Assembly (NCBI GenBank): GCA_038062675.1
Contig: JBBTWP010000003.1
Span: forward strand, 129,378-193,377
DNA length: 64,000 nt
Source of the DNA: Patescibacteria group bacterium
GTDB taxonomy: Bacteria > Patescibacteriota > Minisyncoccia > Phycocordibacterales > UBA1550
Reading direction: 5' to 3'
The notes below the pieces were generated by a model. It was not told the origin of the DNA, searched no databases, and was given only the letters and a program-made list of their open reading frames with translations. Positions 1 to 28,988 of the stretch are shown here, piece by piece. Both the position numbers and the translations under genes were made by a program. Positions within the stretch are counted from its first letter, which is position 1. Every line of letters begins with the position of its first letter.

Positions 1-435
1 TCCTATCGCACCCAAAAGTCCGTTTGCCGGCGTCGTCGCTCCAACACCGGCAAACGCAGGAGGGGATCCATATCGGGAGCCGATTGAATAACAGTCGCTC
101 GACACGCTCCTTTTTTTAGGGCGCCACGCCTTCTCCTGCGGAAGGCTCGCTAATCCTCGGCGCTTTTCGTGCAGATTACTGCACGAACCAAGCAAAGCGC
201 CTGCGGACCCTGAAAAAAGGAGGTGTCTCGCTCTAAGTGCATACAAACTAGTTTGGGATGAAGGTTTTTGGAGCCTTGCGCAGCCTGACGAGGCGAGCGG
301 AGCAATTCGCCAGCAGGCGAATATGCGTGCCACAAAAACCTTCATCTCAAATGAGTTCTGTTTTTAAACTTCAGTCGTACCCTTAAAACGACACAGCGAG
401 CAAAGAGTTCCGCAGTTTGGTCGCGCTTAACGGAC
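1..435. other. GC-rich non-coding leader region with several hairpins, including a 15-bp inverted repeat (256-270 / 333-347) enclosing about 60 nt. Candidate structured RNA or regulatory region.
   Basis: No convincing ORF (the 150..335 minus ORF has no supporting motifs). GC content is visibly above the local average. The arms gatgaaggtttttgg and ccaaaaaccttcatc are perfect reverse complements. Confidence 0.3.
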
Positions 436-22387: not shown

Positions 22388-22858
22388 CTAGTGCCTTACA
22401 TACGCAAAATGAGTGAGTCCAATGGCAATAGCGTCCATTTCGTCGTCTTGGAACTTCTTTTCTGCACCAGTTATGAGTCTTCGCACCATACTCATAACCT
22501 GTTCCTTGGTCGCTTTGCCGTAGCCGGTGGTCGCGACTTTGATTTGAAGTGGTGTGTATTCAGCAATGGCGAGCCCTGAAAGGCGCGCTTGGTAGAGTAT
22601 TGCCCCGCGTACCTCCGCGACACGCATCGCCGTCTTTTGGTTATTGTCCATGAAGAGATTTTCGATGGCAAGCTCTTTGGGTTCATATTCGGCAATCACG
22701 CGTGCCACCTCGCGCCCCACGAGCTCGAGCCGTTCCACAAAGGGAAGTGTTTTTGATGTCTTAAAACATGTCGAAAACACCAACTCCTCTTTTTTGTATT
22801 TCTCCAAAACGGCAATCCCCAGCCGTTCATACCCCGGATCGATGGCAATGATGCGCAT
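22388..22858 (-). CDS. ruvC: Holliday junction resolvase RuvC.
   Basis: MRIIAIDPGYERLGIAVLE... RNase H-like fold motifs. Confidence 0.9.
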   Translation of the reverse strand: MRIIAIDPGYERLGIAVLEKYKKEELVFSTCFKTSKTLPFVERLELVGREVARVIAEYEPKELAIENLFMDNNQKTAMRVAEVRGAILYQARLSGLAIAEYTPLQIKVATTGYGKATKEQVMSMVRRLITGAEKKFQDDEMDAIAIGLTHFAYVRH

Positions 22859-22908
22859 AAAGACATAATAACACAGAGGTGCTGGGCGCTAGGGGTGAAT
22901 TCAATCAA

Positions 22909-23643
22909 TTACAGATTCCCATAGATTTCATCTGGCCTTCTTTTTGTCGCGGTCATTTTGAGGGTTTCGTGCAGGGCGTTGAATGTGGAAATAAATGCTA
23001 GTTCTTTGCTAATAGAGGCCTTTTTTGTTGCATGGTCAATGGTTACCAACATTTTTCCATCTGATATTATTTCAAGGGAAGTAATGAAGGAATTATTCGG
23101 GATACTGTGAAGGATTGTCGGTCTACCGAAGTGCGAGCCCAGTATTTTTTTTGGCAGGCTTTTTATTGTTCCAATCGCGTCATCCGTTATGATTGCGTCG
23201 ATGATAACTTGGCGCAGTTTTTGTCGGGTATGAGCTTGCCCAAAACTTTGTCCCTTGCCTATCATGTCGAGGATGGATTCAATCGCCTCCTTCCCTTGAA
23301 TGCCGATGATAGTATGGCTTCCACTTGCGTGCAAAGCCTGGTATGCATCAAGAATCGAAACAGAGTGATGAATCCTTTCTTGAAGAGAGCCGGTTGTTTC
23401 AAGGAGGGAAAGTGCCCATGTGTGAGATTTTGATGTGTTGTTGAGAATAACCAACCCGCGTTTTTTTAGTTTTTTGAGATTATAGAGGGCGGTGAGACGG
23501 TTAATGTCGAGCGCTTCGCAAAGATTTTTCAGAGCGATAGGCTTCTTTGATTGTTTGAGTGTTCGTAAGATAACCCCTTCCGTCTTATTCGGGAGGGCAA
23601 TTTTAGTAACCATTGCGGGTGATATGTTAAAATTTTTTGACAT
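22909..23643 (-). CDS. Winged-helix transcriptional regulator with an uncharacterised C-terminal domain. Co-oriented with ruvC.
   Basis: N-terminal wHTH (ILRTLKQSKKPIALKNLCEALDINRLTALYNLKKLKKRGLV). It is not YebC-like. Confidence 0.45.
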   Translation of the reverse strand: MSKNFNISPAMVTKIALPNKTEGVILRTLKQSKKPIALKNLCEALDINRLTALYNLKKLKKRGLVILNNTSKSHTWALSLLETTGSLQERIHHSVSILDAYQALHASGSHTIIGIQGKEAIESILDMIGKGQSFGQAHTRQKLRQVIIDAIITDDAIGTIKSLPKKILGSHFGRPTILHSIPNNSFITSLEIISDGKMLVTIDHATKKASISKELAFISTFNALHETLKMTATKRRPDEIYGNL

Positions 23644-23771
23644 GTATACGTAATATAGTATATATATTGCAAGGTTTTGTCAACCTACTGGAATTCTTTG
23701 AAAAATAGAACGCAGCTTGTATATGCTAGTAACTAGAGGTACCAAAGTCTTTCTTTTTAACAACATGAGGA

Positions 23772-23996
23772 TTGAACATGAAACTACTCGACATCACCCC
23801 TGCGAAATTTTCATGCGTACTCGGGATGTGCCCAGGAGTGTACGCATCTGATAACAGTTATGTTGTGGTTGGAAAACAAATTGACGCCAGCCGTCATTTG
23901 CCCGGTCGAGTTGCGCCACACGAACAGGCTGTGGAGATACCAAAGGAATTGCTTGAACAAGCGGTAGTTGATTATTTAAAAACAAGGCATAAGTGA
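23772..23996 (+). CDS. Small hypothetical protein (74 aa).
   Basis: RBS AGGA 7 nt upstream. Followed by a strong terminator at 24029-24060. Confidence 0.35.
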   Translation: MNMKLLDITPAKFSCVLGMCPGVYASDNSYVVVGKQIDASRHLPGRVAPHEQAVEIPKELLEQAVVDYLKTRHK

Positions 23997-24028
23997 TATT
24001 TGCGCTTAATGCACTGGACTGAGTTTTT

Positions 24029-24060
24029 GCCCCCGCACATTCGTGCGGGGTTTTGTTTTT
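24029..24060 (+). terminator. Intrinsic terminator.
   Basis: ccccgcac-attc-gtgcgggg followed by a T-run. Confidence 0.7.
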
Positions 24061-24123
24061 GAGTAGTTGCGTGGATGCAAAAACAGATTGTGCCTCTGTT
24101 AAATAGTTAAAGCAATTTTTGCT

Positions 24124-24215
24124 GTCGATCCTCGGGATATCCAAACCCAAATGCTCATACGCGCGCGCCGTGGCGATACGGCCACGCGGGGTGCGCTTTT
24201 TAGCGCCGTAGGGGG
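24124..24215 (-). pseudogene. Diverged duplicate of the ruvB 3' end (would encode ...RVYEHLGLDIPRIDS). Scar of an old insertion behind ruvB.
   Basis: DNA and encoded-peptide similarity to the true ruvB C-terminus at 26257-26340 (…[15 protein letters not shown]). Confidence 0.5.
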
Positions 24216-24318
24216 TTTAGTCGTAACTTAATACCAGCATTTTGGCTACAATATACTTTGTACGAATTCTTGACATGACATGTTTGCATTTCGTACATAT
24301 ATTATGTATACTTGAAGC

Positions 24319-24993
24319 ATGAGTATTAAGTACGCACCATTTATAAAAAGTCTTCGCACAAAAAAAGGGCTTTCACAGCTTGCGTTGGCGCAAAAGATAG
24401 GCATATCTCGCCCATTGTACATTGCAGTCGAGCAAGGGAAGCGAGAGCTTACACTGGGCGAATTTGATAAACTTTCGGGCGTGCTTGGAGTGTCGCTTGA
24501 GGAGCTTGAAGGTGGCGAGGTGCCCGATTACGAAAAGTACAAGCAAATGATTTTCATGTTTCTTCGTTTGAATAAAGAAATTACGAAAACAAAGCTGGCT
24601 AAACTCCTCTATTTTGCGGATTTTGGTTGGTTTTACTCTCATCTCAAAAGTATGAGTGGAATGCAGTATCGGAGAATTACTTATGGTCCTGTTGCGGATA
24701 CATATTTTCGACTTATCGACGAGATGTCCGAGGCGGGGGAGATATCTATCAAGCAAACAGAGGAGGGGGCTATGCTCATTTCCCAAACTCGAAGCGGATC
24801 AAAAGCGAACCTCTTGGGTGTAAGCATTGAAGAAAAGAAGCTTATAGAAAAGATTGATAAAAAATGGAAAGGCAAAAAAACAGCAGACATTGTAAAATTT
24901 ACCCACAATCAGTTTCCCTATCTTTACGCCCAAGATAATGAAATTGTGTCATACGGACTTTTTACTCAAGAAAATCCAGATGAAATCTACTAA
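24319..24993 (+). CDS. HTH-XRE domain fused to a Panacea (DUF4065, SocA/PanA-type) antitoxin domain.
   Basis: N-terminal KKGLSQLALAQKIGISRPLYIAVEQGKRELTL. C-terminal KLAKLLYFADFGWFYSHLKSMSGMQYRRITYGPVADTYF, as in Panacea-domain antitoxins. An imperfect palindrome tacata-tat-tatgta overlaps the -10 upstream. Confidence 0.7.
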   Translation: MSIKYAPFIKSLRTKKGLSQLALAQKIGISRPLYIAVEQGKRELTLGEFDKLSGVLGVSLEELEGGEVPDYEKYKQMIFMFLRLNKEITKTKLAKLLYFADFGWFYSHLKSMSGMQYRRITYGPVADTYFRLIDEMSEAGEISIKQTEEGAMLISQTRSGSKANLLGVSIEEKKLIEKIDKKWKGKKTADIVKFTHNQFPYLYAQDNEIVSYGLFTQENPDEIY

Positions 24994-25375
24994 CTACGAA
25001 GTAATATTCGAATCTTTTACAGAGAGGCACTTCATAAAATCCTTTGCTAAAAAATATAGAGGATCTTGGGACTTTACTTTTAAATATTTGTATCAAGAAT
25101 TCGAGCAGATAGAGCTATTGTTTTTGAAAAATACTGCTGAGACTATTTCAGATTCTGAAGATGTAAAAATTTGCAAAACTGAGTTTAAGATTGCGGGAAC
25201 ACAAGACTCAAGACATGGTTCAGGAAATAGATGTATTGTTGCAATTCATAAAAATATAAATAAAGTTCGTGTTTTACTCGTCTATCACAAAAACGATCTT
25301 GGCGGTGGCAATGAAACAGCAAACTGGAAAAGGGTCATAAAAGAAAATTACCCAGAGTACTTAAGCCTTTTATAA
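24980..25375 (+). CDS. RelE/ParE-superfamily-like toxin. 14-nt overlap with the antitoxin gene.
   Basis: C-terminal CIVAIHKNINKVRVLLVYHKND resembles the RelE beta-strand core. Coupled to the Panacea gene. Confidence 0.5.
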   Translation: MKSTNYEVIFESFTERHFIKSFAKKYRGSWDFTFKYLYQEFEQIELLFLKNTAETISDSEDVKICKTEFKIAGTQDSRHGSGNRCIVAIHKNINKVRVLLVYHKNDLGGGNETANWKRVIKENYPEYLSLL

Positions 25376-25384
25376 CAAACTCTT

Positions 25385-25440
25385 CTGCCGGTCCTCTAGA
25401 TAGTCAAATCCCAAGTGCTCATAGGCGCGCTTAAAGAGGC
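25385..25440 (-). repeat. Second duplicate of the ruvB 3' end (atagtcaaatcccaagtgctcataggcgcg).
   Basis: About 90% identical over roughly 35 nt to 26284-26318. Confidence 0.6.
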
Positions 25441-25479
25441 CGCACAATATGATTTTTTTTCGCATGGTATAATACGCAT

Positions 25480-26262
25480 ATGAATATCCAAATAAACAAA
25501 AAATTTTTTATTTTCGTTGTAATTTTAACCATCTTTTCTTTAATCGGGTTAACAATAGATAATTGGGTTTCGCAAAGCACCCCAGAACTCTTCATTGCCG
25601 GGGTGTCTGTCGCAGTTCTCTTTTTTCCAGCAATCCTCGCCATCCTAGTGTCATTTTTGTTGGGAACACTAGTAAAGGTAATCATAGTACTCAAAGATTT
25701 TATTACGAAGAAAGAACCAATTCAGCTTAAAAATATTTTCCCCCGCACCGTTTCTTTACCACTAGTTGTGCTCTTTGCGTTATTTTTTTACTGGTCACTA
25801 CTTTGTAATTCACTAAACACAGCTCGAGAAAAACCTCTTGCAAGCGCCATAATATCAATTCTGACAAGCGAGCGAGGAATGGCAGAGCTTTACTACGAGC
25901 AAAATAATGGTTCGTATGGGGGACAAAAGCCAGCTTCGCATGAAACATGTTCTGCTGAGAGCACAATGTTTGTAGATAAGAATAGCGGACTCAGGAACAT
26001 AGAAAGCAACCGTGCTTATATAAAAGATTCGATGGTTTGTGCCGTTGGGGGCAAGGGGCAGACATGGGCAGTTAGTGTTAAATTTAGAACAGACCTCGTA
26101 CAAAACAGCTGCATTCCTTTTTCTAAAGGAATAAAAGATTTTTTTATTACGCCAAAGGAATCTTTGTGGTGTGTAGACAGTAGTGGGAAAGCCGGTCCAT
26201 CCTTAGATGTTGAGACTCACAACGATGGTTCTGTGGGTTGTGCTACCCCGCCAGTGCTATAA
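25480..26262 (+). CDS. Membrane protein (about 4 TM) with a C-terminal type IV pilin-like domain. Paralogue of the C-terminal part of 6956..8266. Leaderless-type promoter TGGTATAAT-N6-ATG.
   Basis: [14 protein letters not shown]...C...C pilin-head pattern. Extended -10 at 25465-25473. Confidence 0.5.
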
Positions 26263-27276
26263 AAGTCTCCCTTGCTTATCCTCCGGATAGTCAAATCCCA
26301 AGTGCTCGTAGGCGCGGGGTGTGGCGACGCGGCCGCGTGGGGTGCGCTCGAGGAGGCCGAGCTGGAGGAGGTAGGGTTCGTTCACTTCTTCGATAGCAGC
26401 AGTTTCTTCGGAAAGTGCTGCTGCAATTGTGGTGAGGCCGACTGGGCCGCCGTTGAATTTATCAATAATCACTTCAAGTATTTTTCGGTCGAGGGCGGTG
26501 AGGCCAAGCTCGTCGATTTCAAGCAGGGCAAGGGCGTCCGCGACAAATTTTGCAGAGATGTCACCGCGTTCTACTTGGGCGAAATCACGCGCACGTTTTA
26601 AAAGATAGTTTGCGGTACGGGGCGTTGCACGACTGCGACGTGCGATTTCTTGCGCAGCCTCGGCGGGCAAGGGGATTCCCAAAATCTCTGCCGAGCGCGT
26701 TACAATTTTTTCAATTTCAGGTTGTGTATAAAATTCGAGACGGAATGTGCCGCCAGAGAAACGCGAGCGAAGTGGAGCAGAGAGCATGGCGACACGCGTC
26801 GTTGCGGCGATGAGGGTAAAGGGTGGAAGATCGAGCTGAATGGTGCGCGCCGACGGACCTTTGCCAATAATGATGTCGAGCACGCCGGACTCCATAGCAG
26901 GGTAGAGCACTTCCTCAATCATCTTATTTAAGCGGTGAATTTCGTCGATAAAGAGCACGTCGCCAGGAGCAAGGTTGGTGAGAACCGATGCCAAATCACC
27001 CACCTTTTCAATAGCAGGACCCGAGGTGCTCTTCACTTGACAGCCCATTTCATTTGCGATAAGATGCGCTAACGTTGTTTTACCAAGGCCAGGGGGTCCG
27101 TAAAACAGCACATGTTCGGGAGGGTGGGCGCGTTCCTTGGCAGCCTGAAGCAGTATTTTAAGGTTTTTCTTTATCGTTTCTTGACCAATATAGTCATCAA
27201 AACGCTTCGGCCGCAATGTTTGGTCGAGGAAAGAAAACTCTTGATTTAACTGCTTATTTTGTTGTTCGGGGTCCAT
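26257..27276 (-). CDS. ruvB: Holliday junction branch-migration helicase RuvB.
   Basis: [22 protein letters not shown] Walker A. Full-length AAA+ RuvB. Confidence 0.9.
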
Positions 27277-27698: not shown

Positions 27699-28988
27699 TT
27701 AGAACTTTCTATTTTTAGGCTTAATACTTTGAATGCCCACGTATTGTTGTAGGACTTCAGGTATCAAGACCGTCCCATCAGCTTGTTGGTTGTTTTCCAA
27801 AATCGCCAACATAGTTCGGGTAACAGCAACTGCCGTTCCATTGAGCGTGTGTACCAAACTCAACTTCCCGGTAGTTTTATCCTTAAAACGAACATTTAAG
27901 CGTCGTGATTGAAAATCAGTACAGTTTGAGGCAGAAGTAACCTCTCCATACCCTCCATTGTCGCCAATGAATGGCATCCATGCTTCGATGTCGTATTTCC
28001 GGTAGGCTGGCGCTCCGAGATCACTTTTACACATAAGTAGCACACGATACGGGAGATTGAGGGATTGATAGAAATCTTCCTCGATCGCCAACATTTCCTC
28101 GTGAGCCTCTGCACTTTTAGTTGGGTGAACAAATTGATAGAGTTCAACTTTGCTAAACTGGTGAACTCGATACAGACCCTTGCTCTCTCTTCCAGCACTA
28201 CCTGCTTCAGTCCTAAAGCAATGACTCACTCCGGCAATTTTTATCGGAAGGTGCTCTTCTGGGACTACTGAGTTTGCCATATATCCACCGATGGCAATCT
28301 CCGAAGTTCCTATAAGACTAAGGTCTCCCTCCGATAGAGAATATATCTGACTTGCCGGACCTCTAGGTGTGAATCCTGAGGCGGAGATGATGTCATCTCG
28401 TACTATTTCAGGTGTGGTCATCAACGTAAAGCCGTGTCTGTTTGCGATTTCCATTGCGTAGCGAATAAGCCCCATTTCAAGAAGAACAGCTTCGTTCTTA
28501 AGGAAATAAAACTTTGAACCAGTGATTTTCGCAGCTGCTTCAAAGTCCATGATGTCTAATTTTTTACCAAGCTCGACATGATCGAGAGGTTTAAAATTAA
28601 ACTTCGGTGGAGTACCAAAGAACTTTACTGGTATGTTGCCACCTTCGTCAGACCCTTGTGGTACATCAAAGGCACTAAGATTTGGAATTCTAAGAGCCTC
28701 ATGATGGTATTCCTTTTCAAGTATAGAGACCTCATCCTTAAGAGTTTTTATTGTTTCCCTCAAAATGGTAGATTCTTCCTTGAGTTGGTCTCGGGTTGGG
28801 TCATCTGCTTTTTCAAACTGCTTCGCAACTTGATTCACTCTTTGCTGGGATGTCTCAAGAGACATTTTTTTAATCTTCAGTTGCTCATATAGACCAACTA
28901 CTTTGTCTACGTTAGCATCAGCACAGCGTTCTTGTGTGTTTCTGCGAACCAGGTCAAGATTGTTTAGGATAAATCGTATATCTAACAT
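27699..28988 (-). CDS. serS: Seryl-tRNA synthetase.
   Basis: N-terminal coiled-coil arm. The class II motifs are present. Confidence 0.9.
   Translation of the reverse strand: MLDIRFILNNLDLVRRNTQERCADANVDKVVGLYEQLKIKKMSLETSQQRVNQVAKQFEKADDPTRDQLKEESTILRETIKTLKDEVSILEKEYHHEALRIPNLSAFDVPQGSDEGGNIPVKFFGTPPKFNFKPLDHVELGKKLDIMDFEAAAKITGSKFYFLKNEAVLLEMGLIRYAMEIANRHGFTLMTTPEIVRDDIISASGFTPRGPASQIYSLSEGDLSLIGTSEIAIGGYMANSVVPEEHLPIKIAGVSHCFRTEAGSAGRESKGLYRVHQFSKVELYQFVHPTKSAEAHEEMLAIEEDFYQSLNLPYRVLLMCKSDLGAPAYRKYDIEAWMPFIGDNGGYGEVTSASNCTDFQSRRLNVRFKDKTTGKLSLVHTLNGTAVAVTRTMLAILENNQQADGTVLIPEVLQQYVGIQSIKPKNRKF

What the first reader, a model, noticed from the sequence alone, without database searches (positions are those of the whole stretch)
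23644..26340. Insertion stack behind ruvB marked by two decayed copies of the ruvB 3' end
The true ruvB 3' end (26257-26340, minus strand) is echoed twice further downstream. One echo is a short fragment at 25385-25440, about 90% identical. The other is a longer, more diverged fragment at 24124-24215 that still encodes a recognisable RuvB C-terminal peptide. Between these fragments lie discrete cargo segments. One segment is a Panacea antitoxin with its toxin. The other is a pilin-like membrane protein with its own leaderless promoter. This is the pattern left by successive site-specific integrations into the 3' end of a protein-coding gene, each restoring the gene end and leaving a partial duplicate. 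No integrase is present in the window, so the elements appear decayed or are mobilised in trans.
Basis: partly seen in the sequence, partly recalled or inferred. Interest (0 to 1): 0.7.

Follow-up and report, generated by a model that had tools for sequence, protein, structure and literature searches.

The report
Displaced ruvB gene ends at insertion hotspot
Downstream of the DNA-repair gene ruvB in this groundwater ultra-small bacterium lie two leftover copies of the gene's last 20-31 codons, each from a different ruvB variant, showing that foreign DNA was spliced in here at least twice, most likely by ordinary recombination rather than a dedicated mobile element.

Summary
The ruvB 3' end (26257-26349, minus strand) is echoed at 25370-25432 (20 codons plus stop) and at 24107-24198 (31 codons plus stop, one frameshift). 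A 26-mer of the core occurs only at these two places in the window (0 expected), and independent assemblies reproduce every junction.

The echoes are not decayed copies. Echo 2 differs from the live end mostly at third codon positions (12 synonymous against 7 non-synonymous codons), so it evolved as a working ruvB allele of another lineage.

In 135 related Paceibacteria loci, the interval between ruvB and yebC/ruvC is empty in 49 of 111 and holds 0.15-8.8 kb of varied cargo in 62. Only five genomes carry echoes. No tyrosine or serine recombinase was found in any interval, in the window, or with a ruvB end in viral contigs.

One echo in a relative is fused to a truncated gene. Another sits 148 nt from the live stop with no cargo. 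The pilin-like gene is also next to ruvB in a relative that has no repeat.

Best reading (about 0.5): integrase-free, homology-anchored acquisition that displaces the old gene end, as described for rhs and T6SS arrays. Site-specific integration remains possible (about 0.2).

This is a new member of a known kind, of modest interest.

The parts
26257..27276 (-). ruvB, intact (339 aa)
   Evidence: Pfam RuvB_N, AAA_lid_4 and RuvB_C. 84-89% aa identity to Yonathbacteria/Paceibacteria RuvB.
26257..26349 (-). Live ruvB 3' end (allele 0): last 30 codons plus stop, the segment that is echoed
   Evidence: Its stop overlaps the pil260 stop by 6 nt (CTATAA).
25480..26262 (+). pil260: membrane protein with a pilin-like C-terminal domain, convergent to ruvB
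   Evidence: Homologues P0004-P0007 carry PF07963. BLASTP against P0006 gives E 5e-14. A 54% homologue is also convergent to ruvB in L170.
25465..25479 (+). Extended -10 (TGGTATAAT at 25465-25473), 6 nt before the pil260 ATG; putative leaderless promoter
   Evidence: Read from the sequence. The same layout occurs in L170 and L171. Not tested experimentally.
25370..25432 (-). Echo 1: displaced ruvB end (allele 1), 20 codons plus stop, [20 protein letters not shown]
   Evidence: (Smith-Waterman score 78 against a control maximum of 42). Its stop overlaps the toxin stop by 6 nt (TTATAA).
24980..25375 (+). RelE/HigB-fold toxin (131 aa; an alternative start at 24938 gives 145 aa)
   Evidence: No Pfam or PADLOC hit. 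AF2 model pLDDT 88.8. Foldseek 1wmi_A RelE E 3.8e-4, followed by HigB2, YoeB and RelE. More than 1000 homologues.
24319..24993 (+). HTH-Panacea (PanA) antitoxin, 224 aa
   Evidence: PF01381 E 6.8e-14 and PF13274 E 8.5e-13.
24266..24318 (+). Promoter/operator region of the toxin-antitoxin cassette; left limit of DNA homology with other copies of the cassette
   Evidence: blastn against L172, L173 and L176. Conserved TTGAC..TACAT..TATA motifs. Promoter-like hit at 24275-24303.
24107..24198 (-). Echo 2: displaced ruvB end (allele 2), 31 codons plus stop with a 1-nt deletion, [30 protein letters not shown]
   Evidence: HMM score 45.3. Codon-position analysis.
24031..24060 (+). Intrinsic-terminator-like hairpin plus T-run between s74 and echo 2
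23772..23996 (+). s74: small ORF of unknown function, convergent to echo 2
   Evidence: Called as a 72-aa gene in public assemblies. No family hit.
22909..23643 (-). Winged-helix regulator (244 aa) occupying the place where relatives have yebC
   Evidence: PF12840 and PF13463. Weak similarity to TrmB-like genes in L044, L060 and L040.
22388..22858 (-). ruvC, the downstream conserved flank of the hotspot
   Evidence: PF02075 E 5e-35. Synteny ruvB-(yebC)-ruvC-tyrS in most loci.

Best explanation
The interval between ruvB and yebC/ruvC is a gene-exchange hotspot in Paceibacteria (Candidate Phyla Radiation). Most turnover there leaves no scar, because it is plain homologous replacement using the conserved flanking genes.

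Occasionally a piece of DNA from a related species is spliced in by homologous pairing on one side only and an illegitimate join on the other. That piece carries the end of the donor's ruvB plus whatever lay next to it. This is homology-facilitated illegitimate recombination, also called 'C-terminal displacement'. One ruvB end stays attached to the gene, and the other is stranded downstream as an untranslated fragment.

In this genome it happened at least twice, giving: ruvB(allele 0) >< pil260 | echo 1 (allele 1) >< RelE-like toxin/PanA cassette | echo 2 (allele 2) >< s74, wHTH, ruvC. yebC was lost from the locus along the way.

Shown:
- three distinct ruvB alleles in direct order;
- a hotspot with empty and variously filled sites;
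- no recombinase found;
- an illegitimate junction in a related locus.

Inferred:
- DNA entered by natural transformation and RecA-dependent pairing;
- which side served as the anchor;
- the order of events.
For: 1. The three ends are separate functional alleles.
   - Echo 2 against the live end: differences at codon positions 1/2/3 = 7/4/16, with 12 synonymous and 7 non-synonymous codons.
   - Identity is 51/65 in the conserved block, the same as between species (50-55/66).
   - The three tails ([24 protein letters not shown]) all look like tails of relatives.
2. It is a hotspot. Of 111 non-redundant loci with a downstream anchor, 49 have <150 nt and 62 have 0.15-8.8 kb. The cargo is MmeI/type ISP restriction-modification, NYN, ORF6N, transporters and pilin- or collagen-like proteins.
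3. No recombinase was found.
   - XerD/CPR-Xer profile and resolvase searches find nothing in any interval or in the window.
   - A Pfam scan of 104 cargo representatives lists no integrase among the families shown.
   - There are no viral contigs with RuvB or the AYEHLGF motif.
4. Echoes are rare (5 of 135 genomes, 6 echoes). This fits scarless replacement being the rule and displacement the exception.
5. Some junctions look illegitimate.
   - The L027/L122 echo is fused in frame to a truncated NYN-like ORF.
   - The L040 echo is 148 nt from the live stop, with about 60% DNA identity and no cargo.
   - The L060 echo abuts the stop of an unrelated gene.
6. The toxin-antitoxin cassette is a promoter-to-stop unit found at about 75% DNA identity in unrelated contexts, without any ruvB fragment. 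Echo 1 is therefore not part of a mobile element's end.
7. The pil260 homologue lies next to ruvB in L170 with no repeat.
8. The same model has been published for T6SS effector/immunity arrays and rhs (PMC5361080, read). Patescibacteria are reported to keep homologous-recombination and competence genes (PMC12455944).
Against: - All six echoes are 31 codons or shorter. Their starts fall in two zones: codons R1-P3 of ERTPRGR (three echoes) and A10-E14 near RAYEHL (three echoes). This is tighter than random illegitimate joins would be expected to give.
- Only ruvB 3' ends are echoed. No yebC or ruvC 5' fragment was found in 138 searches.
- No parent sequences were found, so junction microhomology could not be examined.
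- Competence and recA genes were not checked in this genome.
- The Pfam summary shows only 25 of 78 families, so a weakly scoring recombinase could have been missed.
Confidence: 0.5

Rival explanations
1. Site-specific integration. Small elements integrate at an attachment site inside the last 60-95 nt of ruvB and bring their own copy of the gene end. The integrase has been deleted or acts in trans from elsewhere in the genome, as with cis-mobilisable elements (CIMEs) stacked by accretion.
For: - Three direct repeats bound two discrete segments.
- The 29/30-nt core is shared by echo 1 and the live end.
- All echoes are short and start in two narrow zones.
- Only the ruvB end is echoed, never the yebC or ruvC start.
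- Empty sites exist.
Against: - There is no recombinase in 135 related intervals, 62 of them occupied, nor in the 64-kb window.
- No viral contig carries a ruvB end.
- 57 or more occupied sites have no repeat.
- Boundaries differ by 2-4 codons.
- The L040 pair shares no identical core.
- The L027 echo truncates a gene.
- The segments are bare promoter-to-stop cassettes of 0.8-1.2 kb.
- The 29/30 core identity is no higher than between species (L092 against the live end is 31/36).
Confidence: 0.2
2. Campbell-type single crossover. A circularised foreign fragment carrying a ruvB 3' piece plus cargo integrates by RecA-dependent recombination within the conserved RTPRGR...AYEHLGF block. This duplicates that block on both sides of the cargo.
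For: - The topology matches what is seen, and it needs no integrase.
- It explains why only the ruvB end is duplicated.
- It explains why echoes begin at the edges of the most conserved DNA blocks.
Against: - It needs a circular double-stranded intermediate, and no source for one is evident.
- The homology available is only 30-95 nt at about 80% identity, which is poor for RecA.
- The L040 pair is only about 60% identical.
- The L027 junction truncates a gene.
Confidence: 0.15
3. Local tandem duplication of the ruvB end followed by decay in place, with cargo inserted later between the copies.
For: Direct orientation and proximity of the copies.
Against: - Divergence is concentrated at synonymous third positions and is at the between-species level.
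- All tails are plausible working RuvB tails.
- Each echo's stop overlaps the stop of its convergent neighbour, as in a native gene pair.
Confidence: 0.03
4. Metagenome assembly chimera that joined related strains at the conserved ruvB block.
For: The source is a metagenome-assembled genome from a community with many related Paceibacteria.
Against: - Independent assemblies from five runs cover both echo junctions at 100% identity.
- The left flank of each echo is not ruvB sequence, which a chimeric join at the conserved block would give.
Confidence: 0.02

Closest known systems
C-terminal displacement / orphan 3'-end arrays of rhs, cdiA and Vibrio cholerae T6SS effector-immunity clusters (Jackson 2009; Poole 2011; Kirchberger 2017, PMC5361080)
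   Same: - A gene has a conserved body and a variable 3' end.
- Incoming DNA pairs with the conserved part and brings a new end plus adjacent genes.
- The old end is pushed downstream.
- Repeated events build an ordered stack.
- No integrase is involved. Homology-facilitated illegitimate recombination is the proposed mechanism.
   Different: - The gene here is a housekeeping Holliday-junction motor, not a polymorphic toxin.
- The displaced ends have no function of their own, and the cargo is unrelated to ruvB and mostly convergent to it.
- The fragments are much shorter (20-31 codons).
- Selection for keeping the old immunity genes, which explains the toxin arrays, does not apply.
Integrase-mediated islands and prophages in the 3' end of protein genes (e14 and phage 21 in icd; SGI1 in trmE, PMC8409611; ICESt1/CIME accretion at fda). 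Named from my own knowledge except SGI1.
   Same: - A partial duplicate of the gene end marks the far side of the insert.
- The element restores the reading frame.
- Tandem accretion gives three repeats for two elements.
   Different: - No integrase here or in any related locus.
- The repeats are diverged alleles without a strict identical core.
- Boundaries are not nucleotide-precise.
- Most occupied sites carry no repeat.
Integrase-free horizontal-transfer hotspots between conserved core genes (general concept, from my own knowledge; genomic islands in groundwater Patescibacteria are described in PMC12455944)
   Same: - A fixed interval between conserved genes is empty in some genomes and filled with defence, toxin-antitoxin, restriction-modification and surface-protein genes in others.
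- Exchange is by recombination in the flanks.
   Different: The gene-end remnants give an unusually explicit record of the order and number of events. This hotspot (ruvB | yebC-ruvC) did not turn up in the papers searched.

Membership tests
Integrase-mediated integrative element at a gene 3' end | A tyrosine or serine recombinase encoded in the element or in intact relatives at the same site | tested here: not met
   No hit in any ruvB-ruvC interval of 135 loci or in the window. The only Xer-like gene lies 6 kb away in L005/L098/L100. None appears among the Pfam families listed for 104 cargo proteins.
Integrase-mediated integrative element at a gene 3' end | Direct repeats (attL/attR) with an identical core flanking each element | tested here: inconclusive
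   Repeats are present. The core is 29/30 for echo 1 but 78% for echo 2 and about 60% in L040. Identity is no higher than between species.
Integrase-mediated integrative element at a gene 3' end | The same nucleotide boundary in independent insertions | tested here: inconclusive
   Six echoes fall in two zones, each spread over 2-4 codons. The sample is too small.
Integrase-mediated integrative element at a gene 3' end | Empty sites in related genomes | tested here: met
   49 of 111 loci have <150 nt between ruvB and yebC/ruvC.
Integrase-mediated integrative element at a gene 3' end | Excision to a circular form and a repaired site | not testable with these tools
   Needs read-level data or PCR.
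C-terminal displacement / HFIR stacks (rhs, cdiA, T6SS arrays) | Conserved gene body with a variable 3' end | tested here: met
   The block [13 protein letters not shown] is conserved, and the tail after it varies in sequence and length among 135 loci.
C-terminal displacement / HFIR stacks (rhs, cdiA, T6SS arrays) | Displaced 3' fragments downstream, in the same orientation, each starting within the conserved part and representing a different allele | tested here: met
C-terminal displacement / HFIR stacks (rhs, cdiA, T6SS arrays) | Illegitimate (non-homologous) join at one side | tested here: inconclusive
   Seen in the related locus L027, where a truncated NYN-like ORF is fused to the echo. 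In the window the parent sequences are unknown.
C-terminal displacement / HFIR stacks (rhs, cdiA, T6SS arrays) | The displaced ends encode toxin domains with cognate immunity genes | tested here: not met
   ruvB is a housekeeping gene and the cargo is unrelated to it. The locus works like these arrays but is not a polymorphic-toxin locus.
PanA (Panacea) toxin-antitoxin pair | A Panacea domain protein adjacent to and overlapping a toxin gene | tested here: met
   PF13274 E 8.5e-13. The overlapping ORF has a RelE/HigB fold. The pairing is conserved in L172, L176 and others.
PanA (Panacea) toxin-antitoxin pair | Toxicity and its neutralisation | not testable with these tools
   Needs expression assays.
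Type IV pilin-like protein (pil260) | N-terminal prepilin cleavage/methylation motif (PF07963) | tested here: not met
   pil260 itself has no Pfam hit. Its first ~95 residues are a multi-span hydrophobic region instead.
Type IV pilin-like protein (pil260) | Homology of the globular part to pilins | tested here: met
   33% identity over 149 columns to P0006, which carries PF07963 (E 5e-14).

The most novel reading that the evidence does not exclude
The conserved coding block at the end of ruvB (RTPRGR...AYEHLGF) is a true docking site for a gene-cassette capture system in Paceibacteria. The system would work without a linked integrase: either a trans-acting recombinase encoded elsewhere, or a RecA/competence-based route with preferred entry points. 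That would explain three observations: only ruvB ends are echoed, echoes are always 31 codons or shorter, and their starts fall in two narrow zones in genomes whose RuvB proteins are 71-86% identical to the window's.
Probability: 0.12. Interest if true: 0.6.

Novelty: new member of a known kind. Interest (0 to 1): 0.33.

Why it matters
Little is known about how Candidate Phyla Radiation bacteria, with their tiny genomes and few recognisable mobile elements, take up new genes. This locus is a readable record of two or more acquisitions at a hotspot shared across a whole class, with no integrase in sight. It points to recombination with DNA of related species as a route by which defence, toxin-antitoxin and surface genes move. 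It also shows that gene-end displacement, so far described for polymorphic toxin genes, can affect a housekeeping gene. This is useful context for annotating islands in such genomes, but it is not a new principle.

Tried and rejected
1. Looked for strain variants with a different occupancy. All contigs encoding the exact RuvB, pil260, toxin or wHTH proteins show the same arrangement.
2. Looked for the donor lineages of the three ends among 135 loci. None is closer than between-species level.
3. Tested whether the live ruvB is a chimera. The GC3 profile rises over the last ~40 codons, but relatives show similar patterns. Segment-wise identity to 31 relatives gives no breakpoint signal. Both were uninformative.
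4. Searched viral contigs for RuvB relatives and for the (R)AYEHLGF coding motif. Nothing was found.
5. Searched for recombinases with XerD- and resolvase-seeded profiles, and by a Pfam scan of 104 cargo proteins. None was found.
6. Checked whether the spacers between echoes and cargo, or the 148-nt L040 insert, are repeated elements. They are unique.
7. Checked whether echo 1 travels with the toxin-antitoxin cassette. It does not, because homology with other copies stops at the toxin stop codon.
8. Searched for 5' echoes of yebC and ruvC. None was found.
9. Sequence-family searches for the toxin, s74 and pil260 gave nothing. Only fold comparison placed the toxin.
10. I could not decide whether the homologous anchor was ruvB (live end foreign, echoes native) or the downstream genes (echoes foreign).


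Full report
**What is in the sequence**

The window comes from a Candidate Phyla Radiation bacterium (Paceibacteria, near Candidatus Yonathbacteria) from the Hainich H41 groundwater well. The closest RuvB proteins are 84-89% identical.

On the minus strand lie serS (27699-28988), ruvB (26257-27276) and ruvC (22388-22858). tyrS follows on the plus strand. Between ruvB and ruvC are 3398 nt. Read in the ruvB direction, they contain:

- pil260 (25480-26262, convergent);
- echo 1 (25370-25432);
- a RelE-fold toxin and an HTH-Panacea antitoxin (24319-25375, convergent);
- echo 2 (24107-24198);
- a terminator hairpin and a small ORF, s74 (23772-23996, convergent);
- a winged-helix regulator (22909-23643, same strand as ruvB).

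The live end encodes [30 protein letters not shown]. Echo 1 encodes [20 protein letters not shown]. Echo 2 encodes [30 protein letters not shown], with a single-base deletion.

A 26-nt core occurs only at the live end and echo 1, with none in 100 shuffles. A profile of the RuvB C-terminus finds only these three sites in 64 kb. Contigs from five independent sequencing runs reproduce all junctions at 99.98-100% identity.

Echo 2 extends to its own stop codon at 24107.

**The echoes are other alleles, not decayed copies**

Between echo 2 and the live end, differences fall 7/4/16 on codon positions 1/2/3. Twelve differing codons are synonymous and seven are not, and four of those seven lie in the naturally variable tail.

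The 78% identity in the conserved block equals what ruvB genes of different species in this family show to the window (50-55 of 66). All three tails resemble tails of real RuvB proteins in relatives.

Each copy therefore evolved under selection as the end of a working ruvB in a separate lineage. Apart from one frameshift and one Asp-to-Gly change, echo 2 has hardly decayed. At least two of the three ends must have arrived by horizontal transfer.

**Comparative picture**

I fetched 80 loci from species-representative genomes and 80 from metagenomes. They reduce to 135 non-redundant loci.

The conserved order is ruvB, a variable interval, yebC (a 176-aa TACO1-family gene, present in 86 of 111 loci), ruvC, then tyrS on the other strand. 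The interval is under 150 nt in 49 loci and 0.15-8.8 kb in 62.

The cargo is heterogeneous and mostly convergent to ruvB:

- MmeI-type and type ISP restriction-modification genes;
- NYN nucleases and ORF6N proteins;
- ABC and other transporters;
- glycosyl hydrolases;
- pilin-like and collagen-like surface proteins;
- toxin-antitoxin pairs.

This is a gene-exchange hotspot shared by a whole class. In the window, yebC is missing from the locus and from the whole 64 kb.

**How common echoes are, and what they look like**

I ran a Smith-Waterman search of each locus with its own last 20 RuvB residues. The maximum control score was 42. The search finds echoes in only five genomes:

| Locus | Score | Description |
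|---|---|---|
| Window | 78 (echo 1; echo 2 scores 45.3 with the profile) | Two echoes, as described above |
| L040 | 76 | SPRGRTATKKAYEHLEFEWKEK*, 148 nt after the live stop, followed by a terminator, with no gene in between |
| L027/L122 | 74 | EHLGFDGPKDKQEKLI*, fused in frame to a truncated NYN-like ORF |
| L060 | 60 | AKAYEHLGFE, directly after the stop of a TrmB-like gene and overlapping the end of a convergent EamA-like gene |
| L092 | 57 | [25 protein letters not shown], behind an NYN gene and in front of a convergent pilin gene |

All six echoes are in the ruvB orientation, lie between ruvB and ruvC, and are 31 codons or shorter. Three start at codons R1-P3 of ERTPRGR and three at A10-E14 around RAYEHL.

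No corresponding 5' fragments of yebC or ruvC exist in any interval. In 138 searches the best score was 41, against a control maximum of 47.

**Search for a recombinase or element**

- Profiles seeded with XerD plus a CPR Xer, and with a resolvase, find no tyrosine or serine recombinase in any ruvB-ruvC interval or in the window. The only Xer-like gene lies 6 kb downstream in one organism.
- A Pfam scan of 104 non-redundant cargo proteins lists no integrase or transposase among the families shown.
- IMG/VR holds no contig with a RuvB relative or with the (R)AYEHLGF coding motif.
- The spacers next to the echoes are unique sequences.

**The cargo units**

*Toxin-antitoxin cassette.* The toxin has more than 1000 homologues at 68-83% identity across Patescibacteria. 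It is always paired with the 224-aa PanA protein, in unrelated neighbourhoods: tsaD/leuS, rplY, and band-7/T4SS pilins.

DNA homology with those copies runs from 53 nt upstream of the PanA start (24266) exactly to the toxin stop (25375). None of the other copies carries a ruvB fragment. Echo 1 is therefore not an end of a mobile unit. It is the tail of a ruvB that once lay stop-to-stop (TTATAA overlap) against this cassette.

The toxin has no sequence-family hit.

*pil260.* Its C-terminal 165 residues are homologous to type IV pilin-like proteins. It has a conserved extended -10 close to the start codon.

A 54% identical homologue sits convergent to ruvB in L170, where RuvB is 87% identical to the window's. 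There it is followed by a BrnT/CopG-like pair, yebC and ruvC, with no echo. The ruvB >< pil260 adjacency is thus shared by two lineages and does not by itself require an integration that duplicates the gene end.

**Interpretation**

My preferred model (about 0.5) is the one published for rhs genes and for Vibrio cholerae T6SS effector-immunity arrays (PMC5361080). DNA from a related species pairs with the conserved part of a gene, and the other end is joined illegitimately. The result is a new 3' end with its neighbours, plus a stranded old end. Most exchanges at the site are ordinary double-crossover replacements that leave no scar.

This accounts for:

- the rarity of echoes;
- the allele-level divergence;
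- the truncated gene at the L027 junction;
- the cargo-free L040 case;
- the absence of recombinases;
- the loss of yebC.

Patescibacteria are reported to retain recombination and competence genes (PMC12455944). I did not verify them in this genome.

I could not tell which side was the anchor. If it was ruvB, the live end and pil260 are the latest arrivals and echo 2 is the ancestral end. If it was the downstream genes, the echoes arrived with the toxin-antitoxin cassette and the s74/wHTH block. GC3 and segment-wise similarity tests were uninformative.

**What keeps the rivals alive**

Three facts are more orderly than random illegitimate joining predicts:

- the shortness of all echoes;
- their two start zones;
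- the asymmetry of six ruvB ends against no yebC or ruvC starts (roughly p = 0.016 under a symmetric expectation, my estimate).

They could reflect several things:

- GC-rich microhomology hotspots at the edges of the two most conserved DNA blocks;
- selection against stranded 5' gene fragments;
- a Campbell-type single crossover (about 0.15);
- a real attachment site served by a recombinase encoded elsewhere (about 0.2).

In-place duplication with decay (0.03) and assembly error (0.02) are effectively excluded.

**Verdict**

- It is a new member of a known kind, namely gene-end displacement at an integrase-free hotspot, here affecting a housekeeping gene in a CPR bacterium.
- Interest is modest (0.33).

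Noticed in passing
window 24266-25375; L172-L179: The HTH-Panacea plus RelE-fold toxin cassette belongs to a very large, highly conserved family in Patescibacteria: more than 1000 toxin homologues at 68-83% aa identity. None has a Pfam or PADLOC family. Copies sit in unrelated contexts as bare promoter-to-stop units.
   Followed up: partly
window 25213-25242: Logan contigs from four different sequencing runs all break at the same 30-nt stretch inside the toxin gene, while the ENA assembly reads through. The only mismatch between assemblies is elsewhere (27052). The cause is unknown; possibly a strain variant or a k-mer shared with another organism.
   Followed up: partly
window 22859-26256 (whole window searched): yebC (TACO1 family) lies between ruvB and ruvC in 86 of 111 related loci. 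It is absent here and anywhere in the 64 kb, and a winged-helix regulator (22909-23643) sits in its place. The echo-bearing loci L040 and L060 also lack yebC and carry a TrmB-like gene.
   Followed up: partly
L002 5551-5670 (same as L093): RuvB ends ...FDIPETQ* and is followed in the same frame by VVLLNEDRQGQLL*. That is a typical RuvB tail stranded a few codons behind a premature stop, a different and smaller kind of tail replacement.
   Followed up: no
L161 2821-3495: An ORF in the ruvB-ruvC interval looks, by eye only, like an IS200/RAYT-type Y1 transposase (HFHFLL motif). It is the only transposase-like gene seen in any interval.
   Followed up: no
window 26321-26332: The ruvB codons for PRGRV (CCA CGC GGC CGC GTC) form a perfect 12-nt palindrome, ACGCGGCCGCGT. 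It lies next to the zone where three of the six echoes begin.
   Followed up: no
window 25465-25482; L170 about 2870-2887; L171 about 63-80: pil260 and its two homologues share an extended -10 (TGGTATAAT or GTAGTATAAT) ending 6-7 nt before the ATG. This suggests a conserved leaderless transcript.
   Followed up: partly
window 25370-25465 (minus strand): Echo 1 sits inside an intact 31-codon ORF with its own ATG ([31 protein letters not shown]). There is no evidence that it is expressed.
   Followed up: no
L092 3383-3964, L066 13466-14074, L027 12397-12648: NYN/LabA-like nuclease genes or fragments recur as cargo in the ruvB-yebC interval of three unrelated genomes.
   Followed up: no
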